Positions 9,975 through 49,095 of a DNA stretch of 64,000 nucleotides are shown here, piece after piece. Within the stretch, counting starts at the first letter, position 1, and each line of letters begins with the position of its first letter. This DNA comes from Candidatus Aminicenantes bacterium (lineage in GTDB: Bacteria; Acidobacteriota; Aminicenantia; Aminicenantales; Aminicenantaceae): contig WVZK01000044.1 in assembly GCA_011772475.1 (NCBI GenBank), forward strand, positions 14,727 through 78,726, in the 5' to 3' direction. The notes beneath the pieces were generated by a model. That model did no database searches, was not told the origin of the DNA, and saw only the letters and a list, made by a program, of their open reading frames with translations. Made by a program: the position numbers and the translations under genes.

Positions 9975-10508
9975 ATGAAAATACTCAGAAATATAAATGT
10001 TCCTTTTTCTAGAAATCAAATTTTAGCCATTTTGGGGGGCATCCTCGTCGTTGTTGTGATTTTGATCTTCATTTTTGGAGCTGTTTGGGGAGGCGTTAAG
10101 CAGCCCATTTCTTTTAATCATAAAATTCATGCGGAGAATGATTTGGATTGCTTGGATTGTCATCCCTATTTTAATGAACATGCTTCATCAGGGAGACCGA
10201 GTCTAGAGACATGCATGAGCTGCCATGAGGAACCTCAAGGTGAAAGCTTGGCTGAAAAAAAGCTTTTAGAATATATAAAATCTGGGAATGAGATTGACTG
10301 GCAAAGACTTTATCGGGTTCCTGAAGATGTTTATTTTTCCCATAGGAGGCATGTAGTTTTAGGGCAAATTGATTGTATGACTTGTCATGGAAATATCGGC
10401 GAAAGTCCCAAGCCGCCTTCAGAGCCTTTAAAAATAACTATGAAGAAATGCATGAAATGTCATGAAGAAAAAGAGGCTAGTAACGATTGTATTGCCTGTC
10501 ATAGATAG
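9975..10508 (+). CDS. membrane-anchored pentaheme cytochrome c (ActA / c3-c7 family-like)
   Basis: 177 aa with an N-terminal TM helix (ILAILGGILVVVVILIFIFGAVWG). Five CXXCH motifs: CLDCH, CMSCH, CMTCH, CMKCH, CIACH. FNHKIH...CLDCH is a typical c7/ActA-type start. Confidence 0.8.
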   Translation: MKILRNINVPFSRNQILAILGGILVVVVILIFIFGAVWGGVKQPISFNHKIHAENDLDCLDCHPYFNEHASSGRPSLETCMSCHEEPQGESLAEKKLLEYIKSGNEIDWQRLYRVPEDVYFSHRRHVVLGQIDCMTCHGNIGESPKPPSEPLKITMKKCMKCHEEKEASNDCIACHR

Positions 10509-10556
10509 AAGTGATTTGAATATATTCTTACCGAAAACTCCAAAAAGGACGAATAA

Positions 10557-21889: not shown

Positions 21890-23116
21890 ATGAAAAGAAA
21901 ATTTATATTCTCAATTCTTTTTCTAGGAATTTGCGTTATAGCATCCGCTCAAGGCGATTCTTATCAAGGAGAGAGGCTATACCAACTTAAGTGTGGACGC
22001 TGCCATTTTGCCTATTCCCCTAGTAAGTATTCTGCTGAGGAATGGAAGACAATCATCAGCGAAATGGGCCCGCTTTCTGGATTAAACAAAGAGACCGAAG
22101 AAGTCATCTTGGATTACCTTCGACAGGAAGCTTCAAAAAAGGAAAGAGAGGCTCTGCCATCGAGTCCTGTCTTGGCTGGCTATGTTTACACTGAATTATT
22201 TTCATCTAAAGATATAACAGATACTTTTGACATCCACTATTTGAACATCAATCTAACGGGCCGAGTCCATGAAAGAATATCCTATCGCGCAGAATTTGAG
22301 TTTGAGCACGGAGGAGGGAAAGATGATCCCCCATTTATTGAACAGGCTTATATTGATGTATGGTTTTTGAAAAATGTAGGTTTAAGAATAGGGGCCATGT
22401 TGACTCCCTTCAATCGCTTTGATGAATTCCATGGTCCCTTAGAGAATCTTCTCGTCACCCGTCCCCAAGTGTCGAGGGAAATTGGAGTCAGTGCTTGGAA
22501 GGAAGTCGGTGTCAACCTTCATGGTAATCTCTTTATTAATAAAGATTTATACCTCAATTACGATGCTTATGTGATAAATGGGCTTGGCAGTGGAAGCCGA
22601 TTGAGAGGAAGTCGTCAATATCGAGACAATAACGATGCCAAAAGCTTTGGGGTTCGTTTAAGCGGAGTTTATTTAGATAGATGGGAAGTGGGTGCCTCAT
22701 ACTATAGGGGTGCCTGGGACGATGCAGGTGATTTCGATTTAAGCATTTATGGCTTTCATCTCATGGGAAAAATCGGTGAATTAAATCTTTTTGCTGAGTA
22801 TTCACGTTCCCTTTCTGAAAATCCAGATCCCTTTGAAGAGGGAAAAGCTGATGGGTATTTTATCCAAGCCTCTTACTTGATCAATGATAAATTCAGACCT
22901 ACGATCAGGTATGGAACTCTGGATTATTTGGACGGGGGAGGGCTCTTGGGTCGTAGCCCAACGGATTTCGATACCAGAGTCTTGGCCTTAGGATTCAATT
23001 ATTACCTCACTCGGGCCATTGTCTTTAAGATTGAATACGACATCGTTCAAGAGGGAGAAAGAAAAGAAGAGAAAGATAATAATCTTCTCGCCTTGCAAGC
23101 TGCAGTCAGGTTCTAA
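21890..23116 (+). CDS. outer-membrane porin-like beta-barrel (porin O/P-like) with an N-terminal monoheme cytochrome c domain
   Basis: 408 aa. Signal peptide MKRKFIFSILFLGICVIASAQ. Heme domain is GERLYQLKCGRCHFAY...EEWKTIISEMGPLSGL...EVILDYLRQ. The remainder has alternating amphipathic strands and ends in an aromatic residue (LALQAAVRF). Confidence 0.65.
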   Translation: MKRKFIFSILFLGICVIASAQGDSYQGERLYQLKCGRCHFAYSPSKYSAEEWKTIISEMGPLSGLNKETEEVILDYLRQEASKKEREALPSSPVLAGYVYTELFSSKDITDTFDIHYLNINLTGRVHERISYRAEFEFEHGGGKDDPPFIEQAYIDVWFLKNVGLRIGAMLTPFNRFDEFHGPLENLLVTRPQVSREIGVSAWKEVGVNLHGNLFINKDLYLNYDAYVINGLGSGSRLRGSRQYRDNNDAKSFGVRLSGVYLDRWEVGASYYRGAWDDAGDFDLSIYGFHLMGKIGELNLFAEYSRSLSENPDPFEEGKADGYFIQASYLINDKFRPTIRYGTLDYLDGGGLLGRSPTDFDTRVLALGFNYYLTRAIVFKIEYDIVQEGERKEEKDNNLLALQAAVRF

Positions 23117-37440: not shown

Positions 37441-38706
37441 TTAAGTGGAGGTCTTTCTATCAATCTGCTTGATTTTAAGAAAAAGGGCTATGGCCAGAAG
37501 AAAGATGAATAGAGTGGCAATAATTAGTCCTGTTTTTCTGAATCTAGCTTCTCTTAAAGCATTTTCTCCAGCTTCTGTGACCTCAACTACGATTTTTTCC
37601 CCTTCTTCTATTTTCTCTTCAATTTCCACCAGAGAAAAACTATGGGTTAAATTTCGCACGAATATCAGTGCGGTGTTTGCTTCTGTTAACCTGAACTTGG
37701 GTTCGCTAACCTCGACTCCCTGCCTGTCTGCTCGCTCGAGGAGATTTTCGGCATGCCGAATTTTTTCGATGAACTCGTCAAGTTTCTCCTTAATGCGGGA
37801 AGCTATCTGGTAGGGCTCAGAATCAGGCTCATGACACTGGATGCAAACAGCCCTTTCCCCTGTTCCGAGCATTTCATCTGAAGGGGGAAGAATCTTATGA
37901 TTTCCATGACAGGCTTCGCACTCGGATATTCCCATCTCATCATAAGCTTTTTTGTGAGGACTTTGGGAGAAGAGTTCCCCAGCACTGGGATGGCATTGAT
38001 GACAGACATAAGCGATGGATGTAACTTCAGGTGGAGAAGCGCCATGATTGCCGTGACAGTCATTGCAGACAGGAGCAGACAAATCTTTTTTTTCGAAAAG
38101 GGCGTGAGCGTGGACACTCTCTTTGTATTCCTCCCACTGATTGGTGGGTATTTTGTAGCCTTTCATGTACTCTTTATCAGAGTGGCAGCGGCTGCATGTT
38201 TGAGGGATGTTCCAGGGAAAAGTCCAAGATTTGGGGTGGGTGGCAGCCTGGATGCCATGAGTTCCATGGCAATCCGTGCAGACCGCAACCCTGGTATCCT
38301 TTTTTTTAAAAAGCTGACCGTGCTCGCTTGTCCAATAGATAGCGAGTTGGTCAACTCTGAGACTGGGATTATAATGTCTCATATAGCTGGAGTCAGAATG
38401 GCAGGAAGCGCAGAAATCAGGGATTTGCGATCTTTTGGGGATTCCTTTAAAAGATTCATCCTTGGCTAAATCCATATCTTCTTCAGAAGCATTTCCTCCA
38501 TGGCAGTCCACACAACTCAACCCGAATTGTTGATGGATATCTAATTGAAAGGTTTCAACAGGTGCCAGAAGTTCATCTTCTAGTTCTTGGTGACACTCGA
38601 TGCAGGAATTTCTTTGGGCAAAGAGAGCATGGTGGGAAATGAATATAGCCAGGATCATAGGAAAGGAAAAGAATATAATTTTTCTCATTCCCGATGTTTT
38701 TTTCAT
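37441..38706 (-). CDS. nonaheme cytochrome c with a C-terminal membrane anchor
   Basis: 421 aa with a signal peptide. Motifs are CIECH, CVDCH, CASCH, CTDCH, CSRCH, CNDCH, CHQCH, CEACH, CIQCH. C-terminal TM helix GLIIATLFIFLLAIALFL. The start is 3 nt after the cyt b stop. Confidence 0.8.
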   Translation of the reverse strand: MKKTSGMRKIIFFSFPMILAIFISHHALFAQRNSCIECHQELEDELLAPVETFQLDIHQQFGLSCVDCHGGNASEEDMDLAKDESFKGIPKRSQIPDFCASCHSDSSYMRHYNPSLRVDQLAIYWTSEHGQLFKKKDTRVAVCTDCHGTHGIQAATHPKSWTFPWNIPQTCSRCHSDKEYMKGYKIPTNQWEEYKESVHAHALFEKKDLSAPVCNDCHGNHGASPPEVTSIAYVCHQCHPSAGELFSQSPHKKAYDEMGISECEACHGNHKILPPSDEMLGTGERAVCIQCHEPDSEPYQIASRIKEKLDEFIEKIRHAENLLERADRQGVEVSEPKFRLTEANTALIFVRNLTHSFSLVEIEEKIEEGEKIVVEVTEAGENALREARFRKTGLIIATLFIFLLAIALFLKIKQIDRKTST

Positions 38707-38709
38707 CTC

Positions 38710-39789
38710 TTATAATCCCGGGAGAAGATAGGTCAAAGCAGTCATGACTACAATGTAAAGGAAGACAATCCAACCTATTGTAGAAAAAACCGGGCTCTTC
38801 CTTTCCTTGGCTGCATTACGATCCAAAAGGGGAACCAGCATCCAGAAAAATCCTCCTATCATGAAACCAAATATAGCCAGAATCTCTCCTTCTAAGGTAA
38901 AAATATGGGCAGGTATGATTTTCAGAGTCGTGAACATGAAAGTAAAATACCATTCAGGTTTTATTCCGAGGGGTGTTGGAGCAAAAGGATCAGCCTTTTG
39001 ACCGACTTCCCAAGGGAAGAAAACACATAAAACACCGATGAGAGCCAGGATGAGCATCCAGCCTAAAGAGTCCTTTAGGATGAAATTTGGGAAAAAGGGA
39101 ACCTCACTTACTTTCTTTTTGCCGAGTCCTATGGGGGTACTCATTCCAAGAATCTGGACTAAGAGCACATGGATTCCAAGGACTATTATTGTCAACAGAG
39201 GAAGAATAGCTATATGGAGCCAGAAAAAGCGCGAAATAGTGGCTCCGGAAACCTCAGTCCCTCCAAGGATAAATGACTTAATCTGACTGCCAATTAAAGG
39301 CAGAGTTCCTGCAAGATCAGTTGCCACTCGTGTGGCAAAAAAGGAAAGCTCGTTCCAAGGGAGAAGATATCCGCTGAAACCAAAAAGAAGGAAAATCAGA
39401 AGAAGGAAAAAACCGGTGATCCAGGTGAGTTCCCGCGGGGATCTGTAAGCTTTGAGAAAAAAGGAGCTGAACATATGAATGAAAATTGCTGCAATAAGAA
39501 TATTCGCGGACCAGCTATGGACAGAGCGCATGAGCCAGCCAAATTTGACTTGGCTCATGATGTATTGAATGCTTTCGTGGGCGGAATCTACAGACGGGGT
39601 GTAGTAAAGGAGGAGCAGGATCCCGGTGAGGACTTGTATAACAAAAAGAAAAAGACAAATGCCCCCAAAATAATACCAGAAGGAATACCTATGTTCAGGA
39701 ACTTTCTTTTTTTTAGCGAATAGAATGAGGCTGGAGAGCTTAAAACGGGAATCTATATAAGAATAAATATTTTGGAGCGCTTTTTTCAT
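38710..39789 (-). CDS. cytochrome b (fused b6 + subunit-IV-like)
   Basis: The probable start is ATG 39789 (MKKALQNIYSYIDSRF...), 1 nt after the Rieske stop; the listed ORF extends to 39834. Signatures are SVHSWSANILIAAIFIHMFSSFF and FSGYLLPWNELSFFATRV. Confidence 0.88.
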   Translation of the reverse strand: MKKALQNIYSYIDSRFKLSSLILFAKKKKVPEHRYSFWYYFGGICLFLFVIQVLTGILLLLYYTPSVDSAHESIQYIMSQVKFGWLMRSVHSWSANILIAAIFIHMFSSFFLKAYRSPRELTWITGFFLLLIFLLFGFSGYLLPWNELSFFATRVATDLAGTLPLIGSQIKSFILGGTEVSGATISRFFWLHIAILPLLTIIVLGIHVLLVQILGMSTPIGLGKKKVSEVPFFPNFILKDSLGWMLILALIGVLCVFFPWEVGQKADPFAPTPLGIKPEWYFTFMFTTLKIIPAHIFTLEGEILAIFGFMIGGFFWMLVPLLDRNAAKERKSPVFSTIGWIVFLYIVVMTALTYLLPGL

Positions 39790-39790
39790 C

Positions 39791-40216
39791 TTAGGCTTTT
39801 TTGGAAACGATGATATCATCTCCTGAAATTTCAACGTTGTAGGATTCTAAAGGAGCAGGGGGAGGGCCAGAGACAACATTTCCGCTTAAATCGAATCTCC
39901 CGTTGTGACAGGGGCAAAGAATCGTGCCTGTATCGCTCTCATAGATGATAGTACAGGTGAGGTGAGTGCAGATAGCAGAGAAAGCCCTTAACTCGCCATC
40001 AGGAGTGTTTATGAGAATGCCGGGAGAGGTTCCGAATTTAAAGATTTTAGACATATTGGGGGCAAGTTCACCTAGCTTGGCAGCGGTAATTTTTTTTATG
40101 ACAGCCTCGGTTTGCTTGGTCGGCAAGATAAAGCTAATAATTGGGTAGAGAAAAGCAATAATTGTACCTACTAGACTCCCTCCTAAAAAGTAGTTGATGA
40201 AATTTCTTCTTTTCAT
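39791..40216 (-). CDS. Rieske [2Fe-2S] protein
   Basis: 141 aa with an N-terminal anchor (MKRRNFINYFLGGSLVGTIIAF). Rieske boxes CTHLTC and CPCHNG. Confidence 0.9.
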   Translation of the reverse strand: MKRRNFINYFLGGSLVGTIIAFLYPIISFILPTKQTEAVIKKITAAKLGELAPNMSKIFKFGTSPGILINTPDGELRAFSAICTHLTCTIIYESDTGTILCPCHNGRFDLSGNVVSGPPPAPLESYNVEISGDDIIVSKKA

Positions 40217-40217
40217 T

Positions 40218-42209
40218 CTACATTGGTTTACCCAAAGATTCTAATTCTTTTTGAAGATTTGTCAATATCTCTTCTGTAGATGTATAGTTATGAATTCCAG
40301 AACTCCCATCGAGTTCAATGTTACGAATGGTCTGTTCAATATTTAAAAGTTGCGCTTTTTCTCCCTCAGATAAGCTGAGTTTTTTCTTTTCTCTTACAAT
40401 AACCTTAGTAGAATCTATGAGATTTTTTATGGAATCTTGCCATTCAGAGAAAATTTCTCTGTAATCTTCATCATGGCAGTCAAGACATTTATTTTTGTCT
40501 GAAAGAAAAATCTGATTCTGAGGGCCAAGATGGCAGTCGATACATTCTGCTTCCGCTTCGAACATTATATCCTTTGCAATGTCATGGCCATTTAATTGAC
40601 CTCCTTGATAGAAGGTTTTTTGTAATTGATGGCAAACAGTACAGTCCTTCTTAGTGTCCTTGTGGTGACAAACAGCGCAACCATGCTTAGTGGCGATGAA
40701 TTCCCCATGTTTTCTGACATTAGAATGGCAGACATTGCACTGTATTTTCTGTTCGATCAAGTGCTTTTGATGAGGAAAGTCTAGTCCGAAAATCTGCATA
40801 TTTATTTCTTCAATCCCGGCGTGGCAATTGTAACACTGGATAGGAATTTCTTTGGATACTGCTAAAAATGCTTCTGGTTTATATGAAGAGCCTATGATCC
40901 CAAGAGCCTCCACGACACTATTATAGGAAGCGGAAAGGAGTTCCTGAGAGTATTCAACATTATGAACACTCTTTCCTCGGTCGACTATGTCGATGTTAAA
41001 GGCAGCTTCCTCAAGCGTTTTCTGAGCTTTTTCTTTCTCTGTATTTTTAGATTGCTCGAGCTCCTGACTGGCTTTGTTATAGATGGTCCTGAGTTTACTC
41101 AATTTTTTATCTGTAGAGATTTCCCAATCCTTCATGATTCTCGCAAAGCCTCTTCCATGACAGGACTCGCAGGCTTGGGCCTTTGAGGTGAAGGTCTCAC
41201 TTTTTATAATTTTCCCACCTGTTTCTTCGTGAAAAATATGGCAGCCTTTACAGCTCAATCCCTTCTCCAGCATGATATTAGGCACTGGGTGGGAAATGCC
41301 CTTACCTCCCTCTCCGATGAAGAGAATCTTTTGAGCTTTGTGATAGTCGGTATGGCATGTCTGGCAATCGGCGATGGTCTCAATTTCTTTGATGATCTTA
41401 TGTTGAATATCCATGTGACATTGATTACATTCGATTTTATGAGAAAAAATATGCACAAAATGCATCTGATCAGTATCAACATATTTATTGAGTCGGTCTA
41501 TTTCCCAGTGGCATTTATAGCAGTTTTCTCGAGGCACCACACCGTCACCTAAGATGGTATGGCTGTGGCATTTGTTACATTCAAAGCCATTATCAAAAAC
41601 AAGGGAATGGTTGAATTTTGACGTCTTTTCCGAAATCAAATCTTCTCGATGATGGCAGTGGTAACATTCGCTTATCTGAGGATAATGGTCACTTTTTTTG
41701 AAATGACAAATAAAACAGGTGCTTTCTGTAACGGTGATATGTTCTCCTTGGACAATTTGGGAATGACAACTTGTACACCGGAGTTGTTTGCCTCTTTTTA
41801 GGTCTGTAAAGTGGATTTTATGGTCGAAAGCGACTCTTTTGAACTTCACTTTGCCTTCCAGAAGCCTCTTCTTGTGACATCCCTCCCGAAGACAGCTTTC
41901 ATCCGGAATTTCAGCCCAAGGCTTTGATTTCAGGTAGAGCTTGGTCCAGTAGCGACCGACTTGAAGAATCCCTTCGATTTTAGCTCGGATTTTTGGTCTA
42001 ATTCCTGGAGGATAATGACAGGCGTTACACTCGATGTGGCTGTGTGAAGAGGTCTTCCAGCTTTGGTAAAAGGGTTTCATATAATGACAGGAATTACAAA
42101 AATAGGAGTGAGAAGTGTACTCGACTGAACCCAGAGTTAGAATGAGGACAAATCCTATAATTGAGAGAAAGATTATTCTTTTCTTCTTATTAATCTTTTT
42201 TTTCTTCAT
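40218..42209 (-). CDS. membrane-anchored multiheme cytochrome c with 17 CXXCH plus one CX4CH; NapC/NirT-like N-terminus
   Basis: 663 aa. TM helix IIFLSIIGFVLILTLG is followed by CNSCH...CNACH, the NapC/NirT-type start. The remaining motifs are CTSCH, CFICH, CYHCH, CNKCH, CYKCH, CNQCH, CQTCH, CKGCH, CESCH, CYNCH, CNVCH, CAVCH, CTVCH, CIDCH, CLDCH. CLREGCH is encoded at 41894-41874. Confidence 0.8.
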   Translation of the reverse strand: MKKKKINKKKRIIFLSIIGFVLILTLGSVEYTSHSYFCNSCHYMKPFYQSWKTSSHSHIECNACHYPPGIRPKIRAKIEGILQVGRYWTKLYLKSKPWAEIPDESCLREGCHKKRLLEGKVKFKRVAFDHKIHFTDLKRGKQLRCTSCHSQIVQGEHITVTESTCFICHFKKSDHYPQISECYHCHHREDLISEKTSKFNHSLVFDNGFECNKCHSHTILGDGVVPRENCYKCHWEIDRLNKYVDTDQMHFVHIFSHKIECNQCHMDIQHKIIKEIETIADCQTCHTDYHKAQKILFIGEGGKGISHPVPNIMLEKGLSCKGCHIFHEETGGKIIKSETFTSKAQACESCHGRGFARIMKDWEISTDKKLSKLRTIYNKASQELEQSKNTEKEKAQKTLEEAAFNIDIVDRGKSVHNVEYSQELLSASYNSVVEALGIIGSSYKPEAFLAVSKEIPIQCYNCHAGIEEINMQIFGLDFPHQKHLIEQKIQCNVCHSNVRKHGEFIATKHGCAVCHHKDTKKDCTVCHQLQKTFYQGGQLNGHDIAKDIMFEAEAECIDCHLGPQNQIFLSDKNKCLDCHDEDYREIFSEWQDSIKNLIDSTKVIVREKKKLSLSEGEKAQLLNIEQTIRNIELDGSSGIHNYTSTEEILTNLQKELESLGKPM

Positions 42210-42382
42210 TTACTAATTAGATAAGATTTATAGAGAGCGCATAAAGCGTCGTCAAGCCAAAGCTTAAATTATGCAGATACTGCTCTCAGATCAAAGAAGT
42301 ATCAGAGAATTTTTTAATCTATTAAGTACTATTATAAAGCAAGTGATGCATAATTTCTATAATTTTTATTAATTTTATAATT

Positions 42383-42411
42383 TTGACAATTTCTATACTT
42401 TTAATTATAAT
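42383..42411 (+). promoter_or_regulatory. consensus sigma-70 promoter of the octaheme-NrfC-NrfD operon
   Basis: TTGACA (42383-42388), a 17-nt spacer, then TATAAT (42406-42411). Confidence 0.65.
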
Positions 42412-42429
42412 TCTGAAAACATTATTAAA

Positions 42430-43209
42430 ATGAAAGATATTTCCTTCCTCGCGAAGTGGGCAAAAAAATTTTGGAAAAAAGTCCCTGACCAGGTAGTACG
42501 TCTTTCCATACCAATATTGATATTAATCATTGGCTTCATTGTCATGAGAAATCTTCTTGTTCCTTCTGACTTCGGCAAGTATGGACATTTCCGAGCTGCT
42601 GCAATTGACGAATTAGTATCACAGGAAATACAATACAGCGAGCATGAGATGTGTTTTGAGTGTCATGATGATGTCGTAAAAGCCAAGAACATGTCCTATC
42701 ACAGAGGTGTGGAGTGCGAGGTGTGCCATGGTCCCGCAGCAGCCCACATTGAAGACCCAGAAGGCAATCAACTTCCAGCCCCAAGAGAGAGAGGCTACTG
42801 TCCACTCTGCCATGAGTATCTTCCATCAAGACCTACTGGCTTTCCTCAGATTGTTTCAGAGTCACATAACCCATTTAGAGCTTGCGTCTCCTGTCATGAT
42901 GCTCATGACCCGAAACCGCCTACTGTGCCGAAGGAATGTGAGGCTTGTCATGCTGAGATTGCTCGGACCAAGGCTCTTTCTCATCATGTTTACATTTCGT
43001 GTATCAGATGTCACAAAACCCCTAAAGAGCACAATATACGCCCGAGAGCTCATCGGCCTGAGAAACCAAGCACGCGGGAGTTTTGTGGGGAATGTCACGA
43101 TGAGAAGGCACCGAGTGCCAAAGGAGTCCCTAGGGTGAACATGGAGACTCACGGCGAAAGATATGTGTGTTGGCAGTGTCATTATCCTCACTTACCAGAG
43201 GCGCATTAA
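42430..43209 (+). CDS. membrane-anchored octaheme cytochrome c (c3-family-like)
   Basis: 259 aa. TM helix LSIPILILIIGFIVM. Motifs are CFECH, CEVCH, CPLCH, CVSCH, CEACH, CIRCH, CGECH, CWQCH. Confidence 0.78.
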   Translation: MKDISFLAKWAKKFWKKVPDQVVRLSIPILILIIGFIVMRNLLVPSDFGKYGHFRAAAIDELVSQEIQYSEHEMCFECHDDVVKAKNMSYHRGVECEVCHGPAAAHIEDPEGNQLPAPRERGYCPLCHEYLPSRPTGFPQIVSESHNPFRACVSCHDAHDPKPPTVPKECEACHAEIARTKALSHHVYISCIRCHKTPKEHNIRPRAHRPEKPSTREFCGECHDEKAPSAKGVPRVNMETHGERYVCWQCHYPHLPEAH

Positions 43210-43983
43210 ATGAAGGAAGCAAATATCGAAAGAAGAGATTTTTTGAAAAGACTTATCGTCTCAGTTCTTTCTTTTTCATCGCCCGGGCTACTTAAGGCCC
43301 AAGAAAAAAGTAAGGAAAGTACGTCACTTTATGAGAAAGGTTATGATCCAGAAGAACACCTTTGGGGGATGGGAATAAGGATAAATAGATGCATCGGGTG
43401 CGGACGGTGTGCTGATGCCTGCAAGAGAGAAAATGATGTACCAAGACTGCCCTTTTTTTTCCGTACCTGGGTAGAACGCTATATTATCCTTGAGGGAGAT
43501 GAAGTTGTTGTGGATAGCCCCACCGGGGGAGTGGATGGCTTCAAAACCCATGTCCAGGAGAAAAAATTAGTCAGAAGCTTTTTTGTGCCTAAATTATGTA
43601 ACCAGTGCGATAAGCCTCCGTGTGTCCAGGTTTGTCCTGTTGGTGCGACCTACAAGACTGAAGATGGAGTTACTCTTGTTGATTCAGAGTATTGTATAGG
43701 ATGTCGGTACTGCATTCAGGCCTGCCCCTACGGAGCTCGTTTTATTCATCCCAGGACCCATACGGCTGAAAAGTGCACTTTTTGTTATCACCGGATTGTA
43801 AAGGGCTTAATCCCCGCCTGTGTTAAAGTGTGTCCCACCCAGGCGAGGGTATTCGGAGATACAAAAGGAAGGGCTAGTCCTCTCGTTAGATTCATGCGCA
43901 TGAATAAGATACGAGTCCTTAAACCTTATCTCAACACAGAGCCCAAGGTCTTTTATGCCGGACTTGATATGGAAGTAAAATAA
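43210..43983 (+). CDS. Tat-exported four-cluster 4Fe-4S ferredoxin subunit (NrfC/HybA/PsrB-like)
   Basis: 257 aa. Twin-arginine signal ERRDFLKRLIVSVLSF. Cys groups are CIGCGRCADAC, CNQCDKPPCVQVC, CIGCRYCIQAC and CTFCYHR...CVKVC. The start abuts the previous stop. Confidence 0.88.
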   Translation: MKEANIERRDFLKRLIVSVLSFSSPGLLKAQEKSKESTSLYEKGYDPEEHLWGMGIRINRCIGCGRCADACKRENDVPRLPFFFRTWVERYIILEGDEVVVDSPTGGVDGFKTHVQEKKLVRSFFVPKLCNQCDKPPCVQVCPVGATYKTEDGVTLVDSEYCIGCRYCIQACPYGARFIHPRTHTAEKCTFCYHRIVKGLIPACVKVCPTQARVFGDTKGRASPLVRFMRMNKIRVLKPYLNTEPKVFYAGLDMEVK

Positions 43984-43985
43984 GA

Positions 43986-45179
43986 ATGGAAGAAATCGCT
44001 CACCAATTAGCACCAATCCTTGAACAGATAACCGGATATATCTATCCGAATGAGATCGAATTGCACTGGCGTATCCTCATCGTTGTCTACCCTTATATTA
44101 CGGGACTCGTTGCTGGTGCCTTCATCCTCGCTTCGCTGGTAAAAGTATTCAATGTTAGAGAGGTTCAGCCGACCTATCGTCTTTCTCTTCTTACAGCTCT
44201 TGCCTTTTTAATAGTGGCCCCTTTGCCGCTTTTGGCGCATATCGGACACCCTGAAAAATCCCTGGAGATATTCCTGACCCCAAATTTTAGCTCTGCCATG
44301 GCAATGTTTGGATTCATATACGCCTGGTACCTCATGGCAGTTTTATTGCTTGAAATATGGTTTGACTACAGAAGAGACCTCATCATCTGGGCTAAGAATG
44401 AGAAGGGATTGATGAAGTGGATACACAGGATATTCACCTTGTTTTCCACAGACACTTCAGAAAGAGCAGTGCGCTTTGATAAAAGATCAATAAAAGCCAT
44501 AACAATAGTTGGAATTCCTTCCGCCTTTCTACTGCATGGATATGTGGGATTTATCTTTGGTTCTGTGAAGGCCAATCCCTGGTGGTCAAGCGTGCTCATG
44601 CCAATTGTGTTTCTTTTTTCGGCGATTGTATCAGGAATTGCCCTGGTATTACTCATCTACATGGTAGTGACTCTGGTGCGAGGAAAAGAGATAAATATGG
44701 CCTGTCTGGATAAACTCGCAGGCTATTTGTTTTATACGATGATTATTGATTTCTCCCTCGAAGCTTTAGATTTCATTCACCGATTGTATGAGTCAGAGGA
44801 ATCCATAGAAATACTCTCCCAGCTGATCTCAGGAAGATTATTTGTGAGCCTTATCGTTATCCAGCTCCTTCTTGGAATGATATTGCCTCTAGCCGGGCTT
44901 TCTTCAGTCAAATTATTCCGGGTGCCAGCCGAATTAAGAAGGCATATCTACTTTGTCTCAGCTTTACTTGTTCAAGTTGGTATTTTTACGACTAGATGGA
45001 ATGTCGTTATTGGAGGACAATTGTTCTCTAAAAGCTTTAGAGGTCTTACGGCTTATAAGATGTCTCTGGGCGGGGTAGAGGGACTACTCGTATCTTTGGG
45101 TTTTCTTATCCTTCCTTTCATAGTTCTGTATATTCTCGTTAAAATTTTCCCCCCTTGGCAAGAAGCCAAACAGCCCTGA
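43986..45179 (+). CDS. NrfD/PsrC-family integral membrane quinone-interacting subunit
   Basis: 397 aa, about 8-9 TM helices. HWRILIVVYPYITGLVAGAFILASL is the typical NrfD-family first helix. Confidence 0.82.
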   Translation: MEEIAHQLAPILEQITGYIYPNEIELHWRILIVVYPYITGLVAGAFILASLVKVFNVREVQPTYRLSLLTALAFLIVAPLPLLAHIGHPEKSLEIFLTPNFSSAMAMFGFIYAWYLMAVLLLEIWFDYRRDLIIWAKNEKGLMKWIHRIFTLFSTDTSERAVRFDKRSIKAITIVGIPSAFLLHGYVGFIFGSVKANPWWSSVLMPIVFLFSAIVSGIALVLLIYMVVTLVRGKEINMACLDKLAGYLFYTMIIDFSLEALDFIHRLYESEESIEILSQLISGRLFVSLIVIQLLLGMILPLAGLSSVKLFRVPAELRRHIYFVSALLVQVGIFTTRWNVVIGGQLFSKSFRGLTAYKMSLGGVEGLLVSLGFLILPFIVLYILVKIFPPWQEAKQP

Positions 45180-45302
45180 GTCTTAGACTTAGGAAGAACA
45201 GGTTTCGCTTTTGGTCATCATTTCTACAGGATTTTCTATAAGATAGAAAGGGCCAATTTTTCTGATGGATCTGAAAGTAATTTGTCTTTTGAAAAATCGA
45301 TC

Positions 45303-46121
45303 TTAGGCATAGCTGTGCAGGCCAGCCAGAAGATAATTCACGCCGAAATAGGTGAAGAGAGCAGCTAAGAAGCCAAGGACGGCAATATAGGCAGATCTGC
45401 GTCCTTTCCAGCCCATTACGATCCGGGTATGGAGGTAGAGAGCAAAGACAAACCAGGTTATCAGACTCCAAACTTCTTTGGGGTCCCAGCTCCAGTAGCT
45501 TCCCCAAGCGTAATAAGCCCATATCATGCCAAAAACGAGGCCCCCTAGAGTAAAGAGTGGAAAGCCGATGGCGATACATCTGTAGCTGATAGAATCGAGT
45601 TTTTCTGACGATATTCCCGTTTTCTTGGCCTTGCCTTTTTTTTCTTTTGAATCAGCCACTAAATACATGATGCTGGTGACAAAAGCCAAGGCAAAGAAAG
45701 CTTCGCCGAGGAGTGTGACCGAGACATGGAGCCAGAGCCAATAACTCTGGAGGGCAGGAACCAGGGGGGTTGCCTCTTTTGGCATCAACGGAGAAGAAGC
45801 TAAAGCCATGATGGCTATAACGACCAGCATAAAAAGGGCTCCTGCTTTTCGAATCTTGAATTTCCACTCGATAATGACATAGGCGAGAATAGCACTCCAT
45901 GCAAGGAAGGAAAGAGATTCATACATATTGGTGAAAGGTGCATGTCCGCTTTCCACAGTTCTCATAATAAGGGCAGCAGTATGGAGAAGCAGCCCGATGA
46001 ACGCTATGCTAAAGCCTGTTTTGGCCAGATTTTCTTTTTTTGAAAAGAAGTAAGAGAAGTAGAAAAACGCTGCTAAGAAATAGAATATGAAGGTTACGAG
46101 AAATAGGGTTGATTCGCTCAT
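45303..46121 (-). CDS. ccsA: System II cytochrome c biogenesis heme-handling protein CcsA/ResC
   Basis: 272 aa and polytopic. WWD (tryptophan-rich) motif WGSYWSWDPKEVWSLITW and conserved His residues. Confidence 0.9.
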   Translation of the reverse strand: MSESTLFLVTFIFYFLAAFFYFSYFFSKKENLAKTGFSIAFIGLLLHTAALIMRTVESGHAPFTNMYESLSFLAWSAILAYVIIEWKFKIRKAGALFMLVVIAIMALASSPLMPKEATPLVPALQSYWLWLHVSVTLLGEAFFALAFVTSIMYLVADSKEKKGKAKKTGISSEKLDSISYRCIAIGFPLFTLGGLVFGMIWAYYAWGSYWSWDPKEVWSLITWFVFALYLHTRIVMGWKGRRSAYIAVLGFLAALFTYFGVNYLLAGLHSYA

Positions 46122-47470
46122 TTTGATCTCCTTAGGGAAGTCATGATTTTCTCGAATTCAGATTGAAAGGCATCCCGGTTTTTGGAAGCGATTCCTCCTG
46201 CAGTGACTTCTGTTTTCCCGTGGCTCTCTTCCAGAATAACTTTAACCTCTCGAATAGGCCAGTAAAAAGCCAGGGCAAGTCCTAACATTAAAAAGCCGCA
46301 TCCAATCCAAATAATGTTAACTCCTGGGTCTTTAGATGCCTGGATGACAGAGAATTGACTGGACTTGAAATCACGAAGTTCTAGAGTCAAATCCATTTCC
46401 TTTTCTGAGTGAATACGGGCAAAATCGGGAAATTTGGCAAAGATCCAGCCTGAAAAAATTCTCTGTTCGTCTTGCCATCCTTCTATGAAAGCGGCTGGAT
46501 TGTTAGGTTCATTCGAGCGGGATGTAATCTCATTTTTATCGTTAATAATGAAGTCAGGTAGAAAATGGAGGGCAATAAGTTGAATATCATCGTCCCCAAG
46601 ACTGACTCTCTGCCCAACTTTGAACTCTAATTTCCTCAAGAATGATGGGTCCTTTCTTTTTTTAACCCAGATTTCCAAAGAAGGACTTTCCCAGTCCCAG
46701 CCATAGCCACTCTGGTAAAACGCGAAACCTTGGTAGGCCAGGGGATGGTTAACCTCGACAATTTTGCTGAGCTGAGGTTTCTCATTTTCGAGGACTGTTA
46801 GGGTGCTCTTCCAGTCTCTAACCCTTCCATCAGGATAGAATTCAGTTTCGAACTTATCCAGTCTTACCTGAAAGTCGGCCTTGGGGACCGGGAGAACTTG
46901 TCCTTCAAAAAGAGTCAAGTCCGCTTTGAATCCTCCCAGACCGCTGATGATTCCCCCTGCGAGTATGATGAGAAGGCCGAGATGGACAATATCTGACCCA
47001 AACAATCCCAGAGTCTTCTTTCGAGCCAGCAGGAAGCTTCTAGCTTCCTTTTTTTCCTCTTTCAGACGATAATGCCTGGCGGAGAACTCCCTTCCCAACT
47101 CTTCTCTAGTCCTGGCCAAATTCCAGTTTTTCCTGAATTTCTCCCTGATTTTTAAGGAATTGATGTTTTTTGTCTCGAATCGAAGCCTTGGCTGAAAAAC
47201 TCTTTTAAATTTCGGAGAAAGTCGATTCAAGGTACAGATGATGATATTTAAAGAAAAAAGGAAAAGAAGGCCATTGTACCACCAGGAATGGTAGAGGTTT
47301 GTGAACTGGAGGCGGATGAGAAGGCCGGCCAGCTGACCATAGCGAACAGCATATTCGGCAGCACTCCTTTGTTGAGGAATCAAGGTGCCCAGGATAGAGG
47401 CGCAAGTGATGATGATCAACAACACTATGGCTAATTTTACAGAGCTAAAAAATTTAATTAAAGATTTCAT
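46118..47470 (-). CDS. ccsB: System II cytochrome c biogenesis protein CcsB/ResB
   Basis: 450 aa. N-terminus FFSSVKLAIVLLIIITCASILGTLIPQ, a large periplasmic loop and a C-terminal TM. There is a 4-nt overlap with ccsA. Confidence 0.85.
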   Translation of the reverse strand: MKSLIKFFSSVKLAIVLLIIITCASILGTLIPQQRSAAEYAVRYGQLAGLLIRLQFTNLYHSWWYNGLLFLFSLNIIICTLNRLSPKFKRVFQPRLRFETKNINSLKIREKFRKNWNLARTREELGREFSARHYRLKEEKKEARSFLLARKKTLGLFGSDIVHLGLLIILAGGIISGLGGFKADLTLFEGQVLPVPKADFQVRLDKFETEFYPDGRVRDWKSTLTVLENEKPQLSKIVEVNHPLAYQGFAFYQSGYGWDWESPSLEIWVKKRKDPSFLRKLEFKVGQRVSLGDDDIQLIALHFLPDFIINDKNEITSRSNEPNNPAAFIEGWQDEQRIFSGWIFAKFPDFARIHSEKEMDLTLELRDFKSSQFSVIQASKDPGVNIIWIGCGFLMLGLALAFYWPIREVKVILEESHGKTEVTAGGIASKNRDAFQSEFEKIMTSLRRSK

Positions 47471-47490
47471 CTAAATACTAATCCTTAGGT

Positions 47491-48786
47491 CTAAATTCTT
47501 CCAGATAATAATGAATTCATCTCGTTATTGTTACTGTATCTAATGTTGTTCTGCTGATGGTTTTTACGCATCTCTTTGGCCGTGGCCTTGATCACACCCA
47601 AGGAACGCTGCATCTCACTCCATCCGTACCAGAGAGCATAATCAGGATTAGCGTGGAATGTTCCCTGGAAAGTTCTCATCCGGTGTTCTAGAAACATGAC
47701 AAACAGTTCTTGTTCGATGGCTGTGGGAGCATCATGGAAGGTCAGCAAGTCAGGGAAAGGATAGGAATAGTTTTCGGGTTTGGTGAGGAGACCATCCTTG
47801 TATAATCCGGCTACTATGCGTATAGCTTCTGCCATGAGGTAGTCTGCTTCTTTGATCATCTGATCACCCTTATCCAGCTCATTCTTAGCAAAATTCAGAG
47901 AATGGCATTGATTACATGTCTTGAGCATCTTATCTCGTTCTTGTTGCCAGTCTTCCTGGGTAAGCCTGGCGAGATCTGCTGCCTTGACGATATCGAGCCT
48001 TGCAGTAGGATTACCCTCTGGATCCAGGACTCCAAGACCTTGAAGGATTGTTACTCGGTCAGCAGTCCATTGCTCATCTTCTGGCATAGGAAGCCTGACC
48101 GCTAGGAATCCCCAGGCAGTTCTCACAGCATGATTCCCTTTTTCCATATGACAGGTCTGGCAGGTTGGTGCGGCCACTGTTTCTGGAAGCGTCTTGTTCT
48201 GCTTCAATAAATATCGAACGCCATGTTTAGAGCCTGAATACATCTCCCATTGAGGATGGTCGAAACCCATATGGCAGGTCTGACAGGCTTGAGGCTGCTT
48301 AGCTTCCTTCACCGAGAAGATATGACGGGTATGGCAGGCATCACAGGAGGCAACTCCGAAACCTGCCCCATCTTTTTTCAGTTCTGTTATCTCTTCTTTG
48401 GTCTTCAACCCGATCTTATGGCATCCTCCACATCCTTTCATTCCTTCCATCATAGCCATTGGCTGCCAGTGGGCGGTGGGCATAGCTTTCATAGCTGCCC
48501 AGGCGAAGGCATGCTTGCCTTTCTTGAATTGGGCTACTTTCTCATCATGACATTCAGCGCAGGTCTCAGGCGTAGGAATCTGCACTTTGGCCACATCATA
48601 GGAGTCTTTATGAGCTTCTCCGTGGCAGACTGAACAGTCAACTTCATTCTGGCTGTGCTTGCTCAATTGCCAGTCGGTAACGATATTAGGAGTAACATCC
48701 TTGTGACACTTCACACACTCCTGGGCGAATGCTCCTGTACAGAAAGCAATGCTTAAAAGGATAACAGCCATAGTTTTGTGATTCAA
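47491..48786 (-). CDS. octaheme cytochrome c of the hydroxylamine oxidoreductase (HAO) family
   Basis: 431 aa. The TTG start at 48786 is 6 nt after AGGAGGTGA. Signal peptide present. Motifs are CVKCH, CSVCH, CAECH, CGGCH, CDACH, CQTCH, CQTCH, CNQCH. CQTCHMGFDHPQWEMYSGSKHG and FHANPDYALWYGW are HAO-family signatures. Confidence 0.85.
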   Translation of the reverse strand: MNHKTMAVILLSIAFCTGAFAQECVKCHKDVTPNIVTDWQLSKHSQNEVDCSVCHGEAHKDSYDVAKVQIPTPETCAECHDEKVAQFKKGKHAFAWAAMKAMPTAHWQPMAMMEGMKGCGGCHKIGLKTKEEITELKKDGAGFGVASCDACHTRHIFSVKEAKQPQACQTCHMGFDHPQWEMYSGSKHGVRYLLKQNKTLPETVAAPTCQTCHMEKGNHAVRTAWGFLAVRLPMPEDEQWTADRVTILQGLGVLDPEGNPTARLDIVKAADLARLTQEDWQQERDKMLKTCNQCHSLNFAKNELDKGDQMIKEADYLMAEAIRIVAGLYKDGLLTKPENYSYPFPDLLTFHDAPTAIEQELFVMFLEHRMRTFQGTFHANPDYALWYGWSEMQRSLGVIKATAKEMRKNHQQNNIRYSNNNEMNSLLSGRI

Positions 48787-49057
48787 GGCTCACCTCCTTT
48801 TAAATTTATTCGAAAACCTTCTAATTTTTCTACCCCTGCTTGGCTTAAAACATATATCATTGTTGCCATAAATTGTCAAAGCTAAACTCGTGCTCTAAAT
48901 TCTTATGATTTTACAAATTAATAGATACTAATAATATAGAATTAGTAGATTTTTTTCAATAGAAATAGTCTATGAATTTCTCTATGAATGTTTATTCGAG
49001 TTTTTGGTCTTTTTGGCGACAATTTTGATGGATGGCTTCTTCTCTATTCAGGAGGTG

Positions 49058-49095
49058 AGGAAAAAAGAGAGAAGCAGTTAACTTCTCTCTTTTCT
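49058..49095 (-). terminator. Rho-independent terminator after the MtrB-like gene (hairpin readable on both strands)
   Basis: AGAGAGAAG (49066-49074) pairs with CTTCTCTCT (49082-49090) across a 7-nt loop. It is flanked by an A-run (49061-49065) and TTTCT. On the minus strand the hairpin is followed by TTTTTCC. Confidence 0.7.

What the first reader, a model, noticed from the sequence alone, without database searches (positions are those of the whole stretch)
45303..48786. HAO-family octaheme cytochrome co-transcribed with its own System II (CcsB/CcsA) maturation genes
A 431-aa secreted protein with eight CXXCH and HAO-family signatures (CQTCHMGFDHPQWEMYSGSKHG, FHANPDYALWYGW) is followed after 20 nt by ccsB, and then by ccsA with a 4-nt overlap. 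It is separated from the upstream MtrB-like gene by a terminator, so it probably has its own promoter in 48787-49057. The short length resembles reductive HAO-like enzymes rather than the longer nitrifier HAO. I cannot tell by eye whether the cross-linking tyrosine is present. Placing the only cytochrome-maturation genes of the island behind this gene suggests co-regulation of heme attachment with a nitrogen-oxide or hydroxylamine-transforming enzyme. The gene sits next to an outer-membrane electron conduit.
Basis: partly seen in the sequence, partly recalled or inferred. Interest (0 to 1): 0.6.

Follow-up and report, generated by a model that had tools for sequence, protein, structure and literature searches.

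The report
Tyrosine-less HAO cytochrome beside housekeeping ccsBA
An uncultured Aminicenantes bacterium encodes a short eight-heme enzyme of the hydroxylamine-oxidoreductase family, probably a reductase for nitrite, NO or hydroxylamine, and the heme-attachment genes behind it are the cell's general machinery for all its cytochromes, not a private set.

Summary
At 47491-48786 (-) lies a secreted 431-aa protein with eight CXXCH motifs. ccsB follows after 20 nt, and ccsA overlaps ccsB by 4 nt. A strong terminator separates this block from the upstream porin gene.

The protein is a true HAO-family member (PF13447; the nine best PDB fold matches, all those with E <= 0.001, are HAO-family entries). 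It has L385/W386 where oxidative HAOs carry the cross-linking tyrosine, and it keeps the distal Asp-His pair. It belongs to a ~410-aa clade that is 68-83% identical across more than 15 phyla. In other phyla this clade often sits beside Rrf2 regulators, NapH-like ferredoxins, flavodiiron proteins or NOR-like proteins. A reductive N-oxide role is therefore the best inference.

"Its own maturation genes" is not supported:
- All eight heme motifs are canonical, and CcsA has the canonical WWD motif.
- No System I was found.
- 55 of 61 related genomes have effectively one CcsA.
- 39 of 61 related genomes lack the HAO yet keep ccsBA at the same place in the same cytochrome island.
- A conserved promoter-like box precedes ccsB.

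The HAO is an optional insert between an outer-membrane conduit and the backbone ccsBA.

The scan has already met this clade in 58 other genomes, once in the same arrangement. This is a new member of a known kind, of modest interest.

The parts
48851..48879 (-). Promoter-like box for hao: TTGACA-N17-TATATG, about 65 nt upstream of the TTG start
   Evidence: Read. The same TTGACA-N17-TATAAG is conserved in the diverged second copy on C121, while the surrounding spacer is not. Function is not shown.
47491..48786 (-). hao-like gene: secreted 431-aa octaheme cytochrome c of the HAO family, with a signal peptide ending AFA|QE
   Evidence: PF13447 scores 107.7 bits. The best PDB match is 6h5l (Kustc0458).
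48418..48432 (-). Fourth heme motif CGGCH (residues 119-123), which is the catalytic, five-coordinate heme position in HAO-family structures
   Evidence: Position. The motif is invariant in 38 clade members. The assignment as the catalytic heme rests on homology with HAO structures (PMC8042395), so it is an inference.
48256..48261 (-). Asp176-His177, aligned with the distal Asp267-His268 pair of Nitrosomonas HAO
   Evidence: HMMER alignments (CHMGFDHPQWE against CHSGVDHNNWE). Invariant in the clade.
47626..47640 (-). Y383-A-L385-W386-Y387: the segment homologous to the cross-linking Tyr of oxidative HAOs. Leu or Trp stands at the Tyr position.
   Evidence: NeHAO Y467 aligns with L385. Anchoring on the conserved His378 (His+8 = Tyr in NeHAO and, by sequence index, Tyr415 of the Kustc1061 chain) gives W386, as in Kustc0458. 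The HMMER alignment to Kustc1061 would instead give Y387, so there is an ambiguity of plus or minus one residue.
47494..47547 (-). C-terminal extension of about 18 aa that is specific to this genome's HAO and reads into what is hao-ccsB spacer in relatives
   Evidence: Alignment A1 and spacer comparison.
47505..47534 (-). Promoter-like box for ccsBA (GTAACA-N18-TATTAT) inside the 3' end of hao
   Evidence: It aligns with the conserved TTGC(A/C)A-N17-TAT(A/T)TT box in the hao-ccsB spacer of four of the five relatives aligned. Function is not shown.
46118..47470 (-). ccsB (ResB): System II cytochrome c synthase subunit with a VNHP motif at 46742-46753
   Evidence: PF05140, E = 1.7e-81 over the full length. 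Motif. Motif definition from PMC4222556.
45303..46121 (-). ccsA: System II heme-handling subunit with the canonical WWD motif WAYYAWGSYWSWDPKE at 45474-45521
   Evidence: TIGR03144, 275.5 bits against a cut-off of 187.6. Motif against the published consensus.
49061..49095 (-). Intrinsic terminator after the GSU2204-family porin gene, which ends the upstream conduit operon
   Evidence: -18.8 kcal/mol, z = -5.6, 0 of 200 shuffles fold as well, and a U-run follows.

Best explanation
**The HAO-like gene.** It encodes a soluble periplasmic octaheme enzyme of the hydroxylamine-oxidoreductase family.
- It is of the tyrosine-less kind. Seven hemes act as a bis-His wire and the fourth heme is the open catalytic site, with the family's distal Asp-His pair.
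- It most likely takes electrons from the periplasmic multiheme network encoded around it and reduces a nitrogen oxide or hydroxylamine (NO2-, NO or NH2OH). The purpose would be detoxification or an accessory respiratory sink.
- It is transcribed from its own promoter.

**The two genes behind it.** ccsB and ccsA form the organism's general System II cytochrome c synthase.
- They export heme and attach it to every CXXCH apocytochrome of the cell.
- They belong to the conserved backbone of the Aminicenantales cytochrome island. The order is sensor kinase, NtrC, [conduit], [HAO], ccsB, ccsA, 17-heme cytochrome, Rieske, cytochrome b.
- The HAO gene is an optional insert just upstream of them.
- Read-through from hao into ccsBA is possible, because no terminator lies between them. 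ccsBA probably also has its own promoter.

**Shown:** family membership, motif content, gene order and its conservation, and single-copy status of ccsA in relatives.

**Inferred:** reductive direction, substrate, electron donor and transcription pattern.
For: **Family membership.**
- PF13447, E = 8e-31.
- All sequence matches in the PDB except one weak hit (6lod, E = 0.0023) are HAO, HOX, HDH or IhOCC entries, with Kustc0458 (the reductive HAOr) best at 147.5 bits.
- The nine best Foldseek matches are all HAO-family entries. NrfA and ONR score only E > 1.

**Reductive type.**
- Leu385/Trp386 stand at the cross-link position.
- Trp at this site is reported for epsilon-Hao (PMC8940962).
- Tyr-less HAOs tested so far are reductases (PMC8042395).
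- Asp176-His177 are invariant.

**N-oxide context in other phyla.** 24 of the 80 related loci examined carry one or more of the following within 6 kb; all but one of them (L011, Rrf2 only) lie outside Aminicenantes:
- an Rrf2 regulator (12 loci);
- a NapH/MauN-like ferredoxin (11);
- a flavodiiron NO-reductase-like protein (5);
- a heme-copper NOR-sized subunit (5);
- a hemerythrin-DUF438-PAS protein (5).

**ccsBA is general, not dedicated.**
- There are eight canonical motifs and a canonical WWD motif.
- There is no CcmE, and the only PF01578 hits are this ccsA and the collinear C121 copy.
- The assembly has 30 ORFs with four or more CXXCH motifs, 11 of them in this window.
- 60 of 61 genomes of the order have CcsA. 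54 have exactly one hit, and 55 if a split gene is counted once. Five closed genomes are among these.
- Only 22 of 61 have the HAO.

**Position in the island.**
- In all 16 genomes where both genes are on one contig, hao lies about 1.3-1.9 kb (typically ~1.6 kb, one ccsB length) upstream of the CcsA match on the same strand.
- HAO-less genomes have NtrC-ccsB-ccsA-17heme (G057) or conduit decaheme then ccsBA (G015, G009).

**Promoter-like boxes.** Both are conserved.
Against: - No activity, spectrum or transcript data exist.
- The alignment around the tyrosine site is ambiguous by one residue either way. Two invariant tyrosines (Y383, Y387) flank it, and HMMER's alignment to Kustc1061 pairs its Tyr415 (by index) with Y387.
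- The AlphaFold model is poor in the heme core (mean pLDDT 62.5), so no structural check of the site was possible.
- This genome (87.6% complete) shows no NrfA, Hcp, Nap or Nar. A source of nitrite or NO for a respiratory role is therefore not evident.
- In Aminicenantales none of the N-oxide neighbours is present. The neighbour there is an electron conduit.
- About two thirds of the loci from other phyla carry none of the listed neighbours either.
- The invariably tight hao-ccsBA adjacency across several families is not explained by 'optional insert' alone.
Confidence: 0.62

Rival explanations
1. Dedicated maturation. This CcsBA pair is a specialised heme lyase that co-evolved with the HAO-like protein and is co-regulated with it, as NrfI serves NrfA and CcsA1 serves MccA in Wolinella.
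For: - hao and ccsB are adjacent in every informative relative, 16 of 16.
- The gap here is 20 nt with no terminator.
- Another window of the scan shows the same arrangement (e1-4444091).
Against: - The HAO has no non-canonical heme motif.
- CcsA has the canonical WWD motif.
- No other synthase is present to serve the roughly 30 other multiheme ORFs.
- 39 of 61 relatives have ccsBA without the HAO.
- In G043 the HAO is a pseudogene while ccsBA stays intact.
- A conserved promoter-like box lies in the spacer.
Confidence: 0.06
2. Non-catalytic relay. The octaheme is simply a periplasmic electron carrier that links the inner-membrane quinol-oxidising complexes of the island to the adjacent outer-membrane conduit, in the way OmaB or PpcA-type proteins do.
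For: - In at least 13 HAO-bearing relatives a DmsE/GSU2203-type decaheme conduit gene lies 2-7 kb upstream on the same strand.
- No N-oxide genes are nearby in Aminicenantales.
Against: - The distal Asp-His pair and the whole heme-4 surroundings are invariant across phyla.
- In most other phyla the gene stands without any conduit, and often beside NO-stress genes.
- 68-83% identity across phyla is unusually strict for a mere wire.
- Conduits occur without the HAO in G015, G009, G013 and G046.
Confidence: 0.17
3. Oxidative enzyme. Y387 or Y383 forms a P460-type cross-link, and the protein oxidises hydroxylamine (or hydrazine) and passes the electrons to the outer-membrane conduit.
For: - HMMER's alignment to Kustc1061 puts its Tyr415 (sequence index) on Y387.
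- Y383 and Y387 are invariant in the clade.
- The gene lies next to an electron-export conduit.
Against: - Both the alignment to NeHAO and the ungapped alignment to the closest structure, Kustc0458, put Leu/Trp at the site.
- Relatives at 35-58% identity mostly have Trp at His+8, and several have no Tyr at His+9.
- Published surveys find non-nitrifier, non-anammox HAOs to be tyrosine-less.
- No ammonia monooxygenase or hydrazine synthase context is present.
Confidence: 0.05

Closest known systems
Kustc0458/Kustc0457 (HAOr) of Kuenenia stuttgartiensis, PDB 6h5l
   Same: - Best sequence match (147.5 bits with the clade profile) and best fold match.
- Eight hemes.
- No cross-linking Tyr.
- The same spacing between the conserved His and the G of the xWxGx segment, so the two align without gaps there.
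- Characterised as a nitrite-to-NO reductase that cannot oxidise hydroxylamine (PMC8042395).
   Different: - Only 23% identity over the Foldseek structural alignment.
- About 100 residues shorter.
- No diheme partner gene (Kustc0457 type) next to it.
- On a quick tree the three solved references group apart from all ~410-aa relatives (SH-aLRT 97).
Epsilonproteobacterial Hao (epsilon-Hao) of Nautilia, Caminibacter and Campylobacter, and the 'epsilon-Hao' proposed for Caldithrix abyssi
   Same: - Short, tyrosine-less and periplasmic.
- Trp at the position of the cross-linking Tyr when anchored on the conserved His.
- Those enzymes reduce nitrite and hydroxylamine in vitro (as cited in PMC8042395, PMC8940962 and PMC5317091).
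- A Calditrichota MAG carries a 75%-identical orthologue (L068).
   Different: - The Met reported eight residues before that Trp is His378 here.
- No nap cluster lies nearby, either in this genome or at the Calditrichota locus L068.
- I could not obtain epsilon-Hao sequences, so orthology was not tested.
Nitrosomonas europaea HAO and anammox HOX/HDH (oxidative P460 enzymes)
   Same: - The same family, heme motif order and distal Asp-His pair.
- The C-terminal helical region aligns.
   Different: - No Tyr at the cross-link position.
- 100-150 residues shorter.
- No amo, hzs or cytochrome c554 context.
Dedicated System II lyases NrfI and CcsA1 of Wolinella succinogenes
   Same: A ccs gene (here a ccsB/ccsA pair; a fused CcsBA-type gene in Wolinella, from my own knowledge) placed directly behind the gene of a multiheme enzyme.
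   Different: - Those lyases serve non-standard motifs (CXXCK, CX15CH) and coexist with a general CcsA2 (from my own knowledge).
- Here all motifs are CXXCH and no other synthase exists.

Membership tests
HAO family of octaheme cytochromes c (Pfam PF13447) | Eight heme-binding motifs in the family's order, and a profile match above the curated threshold | tested here: met
   Eight CXXCH motifs. PF13447 scores 107.7 bits against a cut-off of 21.9, covering residues 47-218 plus a second stretch.
HAO family of octaheme cytochromes c (Pfam PF13447) | The closest solved structures are HAO-family members, not ONR, OTR, MccA or NrfA | tested here: met
   Searches return only HAO, HOX, HDH and IhOCC at E <= 1e-20. 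In one search the top nine are all HAO-family, and NrfA and ONR score E > 1. The model is of low confidence, so TM-scores are low (0.30-0.38).
HAO family of octaheme cytochromes c (Pfam PF13447) | Distal Asp-His pair at the catalytic heme (Asp267/His268 in NeHAO) | tested here: met
   D176-H177 align with NeHAO D267-H268, and with the DH pair of Kustc0458 and Kustc1061. Invariant in 38 clade members.
HAO family of octaheme cytochromes c (Pfam PF13447) | Homotrimer with a ring of 24 hemes and a five-coordinate heme 4 | not testable with these tools
   Only a monomer model without hemes was obtained (pLDDT 62.5). Nine invariant non-motif His besides H177 would suffice for seven bis-His hemes; this is an inference.
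Oxidative (P460) HAO/HOX/HDH | Tyrosine that cross-links to heme 4 of the neighbouring subunit (Y467 in NeHAO) | tested here: not met
   NeHAO Y467 aligns with L385. Anchoring on His gives W386. The register is uncertain by one residue and Y387 is adjacent, so a residual doubt remains.
Epsilon-Hao type reductive HAO | Trp at the Tyr position and a conserved Met eight residues before it (as summarised in PMC8940962) | tested here: inconclusive
   W386 fits the Trp criterion. Eight residues before it stands His378, not Met. No epsilon-Hao sequence was available for direct alignment.
HAOr complex (Kustc0458/0457) | A diheme cytochrome partner encoded next to the HAO | tested here: not met
   The neighbours are a porin gene upstream and ccsB downstream.
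System II cytochrome c synthase (CcsB/CcsA) | A ResB-family protein followed by a CcsA with the WWD motif WAXX(A/S)WGX(F/Y)WXWDXKE, and a VNX1-4P motif in CcsB | tested here: met
   PF05140, E = 1.7e-81. TIGR03144 scores 275.5 against a cut-off of 187.6. WAYYAWGSYWSWDPKE and VNHP are present (motifs from PMC4222556).
Dedicated (substrate-specific) System II heme lyase | A non-canonical heme motif in the adjacent apocytochrome, and a separate general synthase elsewhere in the genome | tested here: not met
   All eight motifs are CXXCH. There is no CcmE and no further PF01578 hit apart from the collinear copy. Relatives carry one CcsA, five closed genomes included.

The most novel reading that the evidence does not exclude
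In Aminicenantales the tyrosine-less HAO may be the periplasmic catalytic end of the adjacent outer-membrane conduit. Electrons taken up from outside the cell (Fe(II), reduced humics or a syntrophic partner) would be delivered through the porin-decaheme wire directly to an N-oxide-reducing octaheme. Alternatively, the same pair might run in reverse. The fixed position conduit-HAO-ccsBA in at least 13 genomes would then reflect a functional module and not chance insertion.
Probability: 0.1. Interest if true: 0.7.

Novelty: new member of a known kind. Interest (0 to 1): 0.3.

Why it matters
**Annotation.** Genes of this clade are routinely annotated 'hydroxylamine dehydrogenase' in metagenomes and are counted as nitrification or hydroxylamine-oxidation potential. 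This protein lacks the tyrosine that oxidative HAOs need, and its clade is nearly invariant across more than 15 anaerobe phyla. Such counts are therefore probably misleading, and the real substrate of a very widespread enzyme remains untested.

**Gene-neighbourhood reasoning.** A maturase next to a cytochrome gene is not necessarily dedicated to it. In this lineage one System II pair, sitting in the middle of the cytochrome island, must serve dozens of multiheme proteins.

Tried and rejected
2. **Structural check of the tyrosine site.** The AlphaFold2 model built from a 38-sequence alignment was poor in the heme core (pLDDT 62.5, below 50 for residues 90-228). Fold search returns no residue alignment. 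It therefore served only to confirm the family.
3. **Papers not held.** The Kustc0458 structure paper, Maalcke 2014 and Haase 2017 could not be read. Kustc1061 'Tyr451' was therefore matched to sequence index 415 only by my own recollection of the numbering plus the shared His+8 spacing.
4. **Second hao-ccsBA locus on contig C121 as a within-genome paralogue.**
   - All of contig C185 is mirrored at 70-82% nucleotide identity by a chain of small contigs.
   - About 300 kb of the bin is involved, concentrated on C185.
   - It is either a co-binned relative or an old large duplication, and I could not decide which. In either case each ccsBA copy follows a hao copy.
5. **A universally conserved partner gene next to the HAO across phyla.** None was found. 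Clustering of all neighbours in 80 loci gave only lineage-specific partners.
6. **Sigma-54 promoter upstream of hao.** By eye the best candidate (GAGCAC-N..-TAGCT) lacks the invariant GG, so it was not pursued.
7. **Family tree.** It was a quick search, with reference sequences transcribed in part from HMMER output. Inner branches are poorly resolved (31 of 56 open). I use only the split between the solved references and the ~410-aa group.

Full report
**Observation**

- The 431-aa product of 47491-48786 has a signal peptide ending AFA|QE. It has eight CXXCH motifs at residues 24, 51, 76, 119, 148, 168, 209 and 291, and both quoted signatures are present.
- ccsB starts 20 nt after the hao stop, behind an AAGGA Shine-Dalgarno sequence. 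ccsA overlaps ccsB by 4 nt.
- After the upstream GSU2204-family porin gene there is a hairpin of -18.8 kcal/mol (z = -5.6) followed by a U-run.
- The TTG start is supported by a GGAGGT 5 nt upstream and by conservation of TTG-AAT-CAC-AAA in a diverged second copy.

**Identity of the cytochrome**

- Pfam places the protein in PF13447 (107.7 bits against a cut-off of 21.9).
- Searches of the PDB with the sequence and with a clade profile return only HAO-family entries at E <= 1e-20 (one unrelated multiheme domain, 6lod, appears at E = 0.0023). The reductive Kustc0458 (6h5l) is best, followed by Nitrosomonas HAO, anammox HOX, HDH and IhOCC.
- The AlphaFold model is weak (pLDDT 62.5). Even so, Foldseek ranks the same nine HAO-family entries first and gives NrfA and ONR only E > 1.
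This is an HAO-family protein.
- Asp176-His177 align with the distal Asp267-His268 pair of NeHAO and are invariant in the clade.

**The cross-linking tyrosine**

- In both HMMER alignments NeHAO Tyr467 (GGWTYTEGW) falls on Leu385 of NPDYALWYGW.
- A second way is to anchor on the conserved His (His459 in NeHAO, His378 here). The Tyr is His+8 in NeHAO and, by index, in Kustc1061. This gives Trp386.
- Kustc0458 has the same spacing as this protein and aligns without gaps. It also has Trp there.
- Trp at this site is what has been reported for epsilon-Hao (PMC8940962).
- Relatives at 35-58% identity mostly read (H/L)-W-Y-G-W.
- HMMER's alignment to Kustc1061 would instead pair its Tyr with Tyr387. 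Tyr383 and Tyr387 are invariant. The register is therefore uncertain by one residue, and only a spectrum or a trimer structure can close the matter.
- On balance the protein lacks the cross-link. All such enzymes tested so far are reductases (PMC8042395).

**The clade and its contexts**

- The organism is an Aminicenantes (Acidobacteriota) MAG, judged from the source names of the closest homologues.
- The protein belongs to a very uniform group of ~410-aa proteins. They are 68-83% identical among Aminicenantes, Ignavibacteria, Bacteroidota, Zixibacteria, Thermodesulfobacteriota, Nitrospirota, Gemmatimonadota, KSB1, Calditrichota, Latescibacterota and others. More than 150 columns are invariant.
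- On a quick tree this clade is one side of a branch (SH-aLRT 97). The three solved references included sit together, outside all ~410-aa relatives. I treat this with caution because the references are partial sequences and the search was quick.
- No neighbour is conserved across phyla.
- 24 of the 80 loci, all but one (L011, Rrf2 only) from outside Aminicenantes, carry at least one of the following within 6 kb:
  - an Rrf2 regulator (12 loci);
  - a NapH/MauN-like membrane ferredoxin (11);
  - a SAM methyltransferase (7);
  - a flavodiiron protein resembling NO-reductase flavorubredoxin (5);
  - a NOR-sized heme-copper subunit I (5);
  - a hemerythrin-DUF438-PAS protein (5).
- In Ignavibacteria, Bacteroidota and Calditrichota the genes form an Rrf2, NapH-like, (methyltransferase), HAO string.
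- Earlier notes of this scan report flavodiiron, rubrerythrin and Crp/Fnr contexts for the same clade in other genomes.
- This is guilt by association. It points to NO, nitrite or hydroxylamine handling, with a NapH-like quinol dehydrogenase as a likely donor in those lineages.

**Are the ccs genes the HAO's own?** Several independent results say no.
1. The HAO has only canonical motifs, and CcsA carries the canonical WWD motif and CcsB its VNHP motif. Known dedicated lyases serve odd motifs.
2. The assembly (87.6% complete) has no CcmE. Its only PF01578 hits are this ccsA and one on contig C121. CcdA-like genes lie elsewhere.
3. C121 is collinear with window 38000-48800 at about 77% nucleotide identity, and the whole of C185 is mirrored by small contigs. 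That copy is therefore the same locus from a co-binned relative, or an old duplicate. It is not a separate general system.
4. The assembly has 30 ORFs with at least four CXXCH motifs. Eleven are in this window. All depend on this synthase.
5. In a sample of 61 genomes of the same order, 60 have CcsA. 54 have exactly one hit, and 55 if a split gene is counted once; five closed genomes are among them. Only 22 have the HAO orthologue.
6. In all 16 genomes where hao and ccsA share a contig, hao lies about 1.3-1.9 kb (typically ~1.6 kb, one ccsB length) upstream of the CcsA match on the same strand. The rest are split by contig ends. In G043 the hao is broken by several stop codons while ccsBA is intact.
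7. HAO-less genomes keep the same backbone:
   - G057 has sensor kinase, NtrC, ccsB, ccsA, 17-heme cytochrome.
   - G046 has ccsB, ccsA, 17-heme cytochrome.
   - G015 and G009 have a conduit decaheme about 4 kb upstream of ccsA with no HAO.
8. In relatives the hao-ccsB spacer is 74-225 nt. In four of the five relatives aligned it holds a conserved TTGC(A/C)A-N17-TAT(A/T)TT box about 40 nt before the ccsB start. In the window the hao ORF is about 18 codons longer and has swallowed this box (GTAACA-N18-TATTAT, 47534-47505).

ccsBA thus very probably has its own promoter, although read-through from hao cannot be excluded. hao in turn has a conserved TTGACA-N17-TATA(T/A)G box at 48879-48851.

**Context in this genome**

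- Upstream lie a REC protein, a GSU2203-family decaheme and a GSU2204-family heme-bearing porin (earlier notes e1-2869403 and e1-2869404), with a sensor kinase and NtrC beyond.
- Downstream of ccsA, on the other strand, lie an octaheme, a four-cluster ferredoxin and an NrfD protein. Next come the 17-heme NapC-like cytochrome, Rieske protein, cytochrome b and a nonaheme cytochrome.
- In the relatives examined (G001, G014, G029, G057, G046) ccsA is followed directly by the 17-heme gene. The octaheme-ferredoxin-NrfD module is therefore an insertion in this lineage.
- The genome shows no NrfA, no Hcp and no recognisable Nap or Nar. Its molybdoenzymes look like a NuoG/formate-dehydrogenase type by its N-terminal Fe-S motifs (not scanned against family models) and a PhsA-like enzyme, the latter by an NCBIfam match below the cut-off.
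- A classical nitrate-ammonification chain is thus not evident. Detoxification or opportunistic use of external nitrite or NO seems more likely than a main respiratory role.

**Verdict**

- The finding is real, and its family assignment and 'short, reductive-like' reading hold.
- The central interpretive claim does not hold. There is no private maturation system and no sign of co-regulated heme attachment.
- The HAO is an accessory gene inserted between a conduit operon and the lineage's single, housekeeping System II synthase.
- The clade is known in outline: tyrosine-less HAOs of non-nitrifiers. The scan has already met it in 58 other genomes, one with the same hao-ccsB-ccsA-NapC-like order.
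- Two things remain open and mildly interesting. One is the untested substrate of this extraordinarily conserved enzyme. The other is the constant conduit-HAO-ccsBA order in Aminicenantales.

Noticed in passing
whole contig of the window (G000:C185) against C113, C121, C81, C96, C44, C22, C78 and others: The 103-kb contig is mirrored, collinearly and at 70-82% nucleotide identity, by a chain of short contigs of the same bin. About 300 kb of the 3.14-Mb bin has such a partner, concentrated on C185 (56% of it). This is either a co-binned related organism or an old large duplication of the cytochrome island. The mirror contig C113 skips the carAB genes.
   Followed up: partly
window 21890-23116 (+): A 408-aa porin-like protein (Porin_O_P/Porin_4) carries an N-terminal dihaem cytochrome c domain (PF09626, residues 31-87). 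It looks like an outer-membrane barrel fused to a small cytochrome.
   Followed up: no
window 42430-45179 (+): The octaheme, four-cluster ferredoxin and NrfD module lies between ccsA and the 17-heme gene only in this genome and its C121 copy. In relatives G001, G014, G029, G057 and G046, ccsA is followed directly by the 17-heme gene. The module is therefore a lineage-specific insertion.
   Followed up: partly
L096 (G043:C37:8000-17000), about 4700-5720: In a relative of the same family the HAO orthologue is interrupted by several stop codons, while ccsB and ccsA behind it remain. ccsB itself appears there as two pieces.
   Followed up: partly
L025, L027, L050, L054, L056, L069, L078, L084, L068, L032 (loci from other phyla): A recurrent string of Rrf2 regulator, NapH/MauN-like membrane ferredoxin, (SAM methyltransferase) and HAO-like gene occurs in Ignavibacteria, Bacteroidota and Calditrichota. 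In the Calditrichota-type loci (L068, and the near-identical L032, which is labelled Actinomycetota) a hemerythrin-DUF438-PAS-DUF2249 protein follows the HAO. It is a candidate NO-responsive operon.
   Followed up: partly
L068:1017-2276 (Calditrichota MAG): This orthologue has a three-residue duplication right at the tyrosine-site segment (PDYALWYGWYGWSEM). This shows that the loop tolerates an insertion.
   Followed up: no
window 9975-13016 (+): A small pentaheme cytochrome gene is followed by an 819-aa molybdopterin-family protein (PF00384 hit) and further membrane proteins. The layout recalls alternative complex III. This was not checked further.
   Followed up: no
L009:1817-5847 and the equivalent stretches in L011, L015, L017 and L019: In other Aminicenantes the conduit upstream of hao has three parts: a decaheme, a 623-aa barrel with no Pfam match, and a 715-aa multiheme cytochrome. 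It ends only about 150 nt before hao. The window's conduit has two parts and a terminator.
   Followed up: partly
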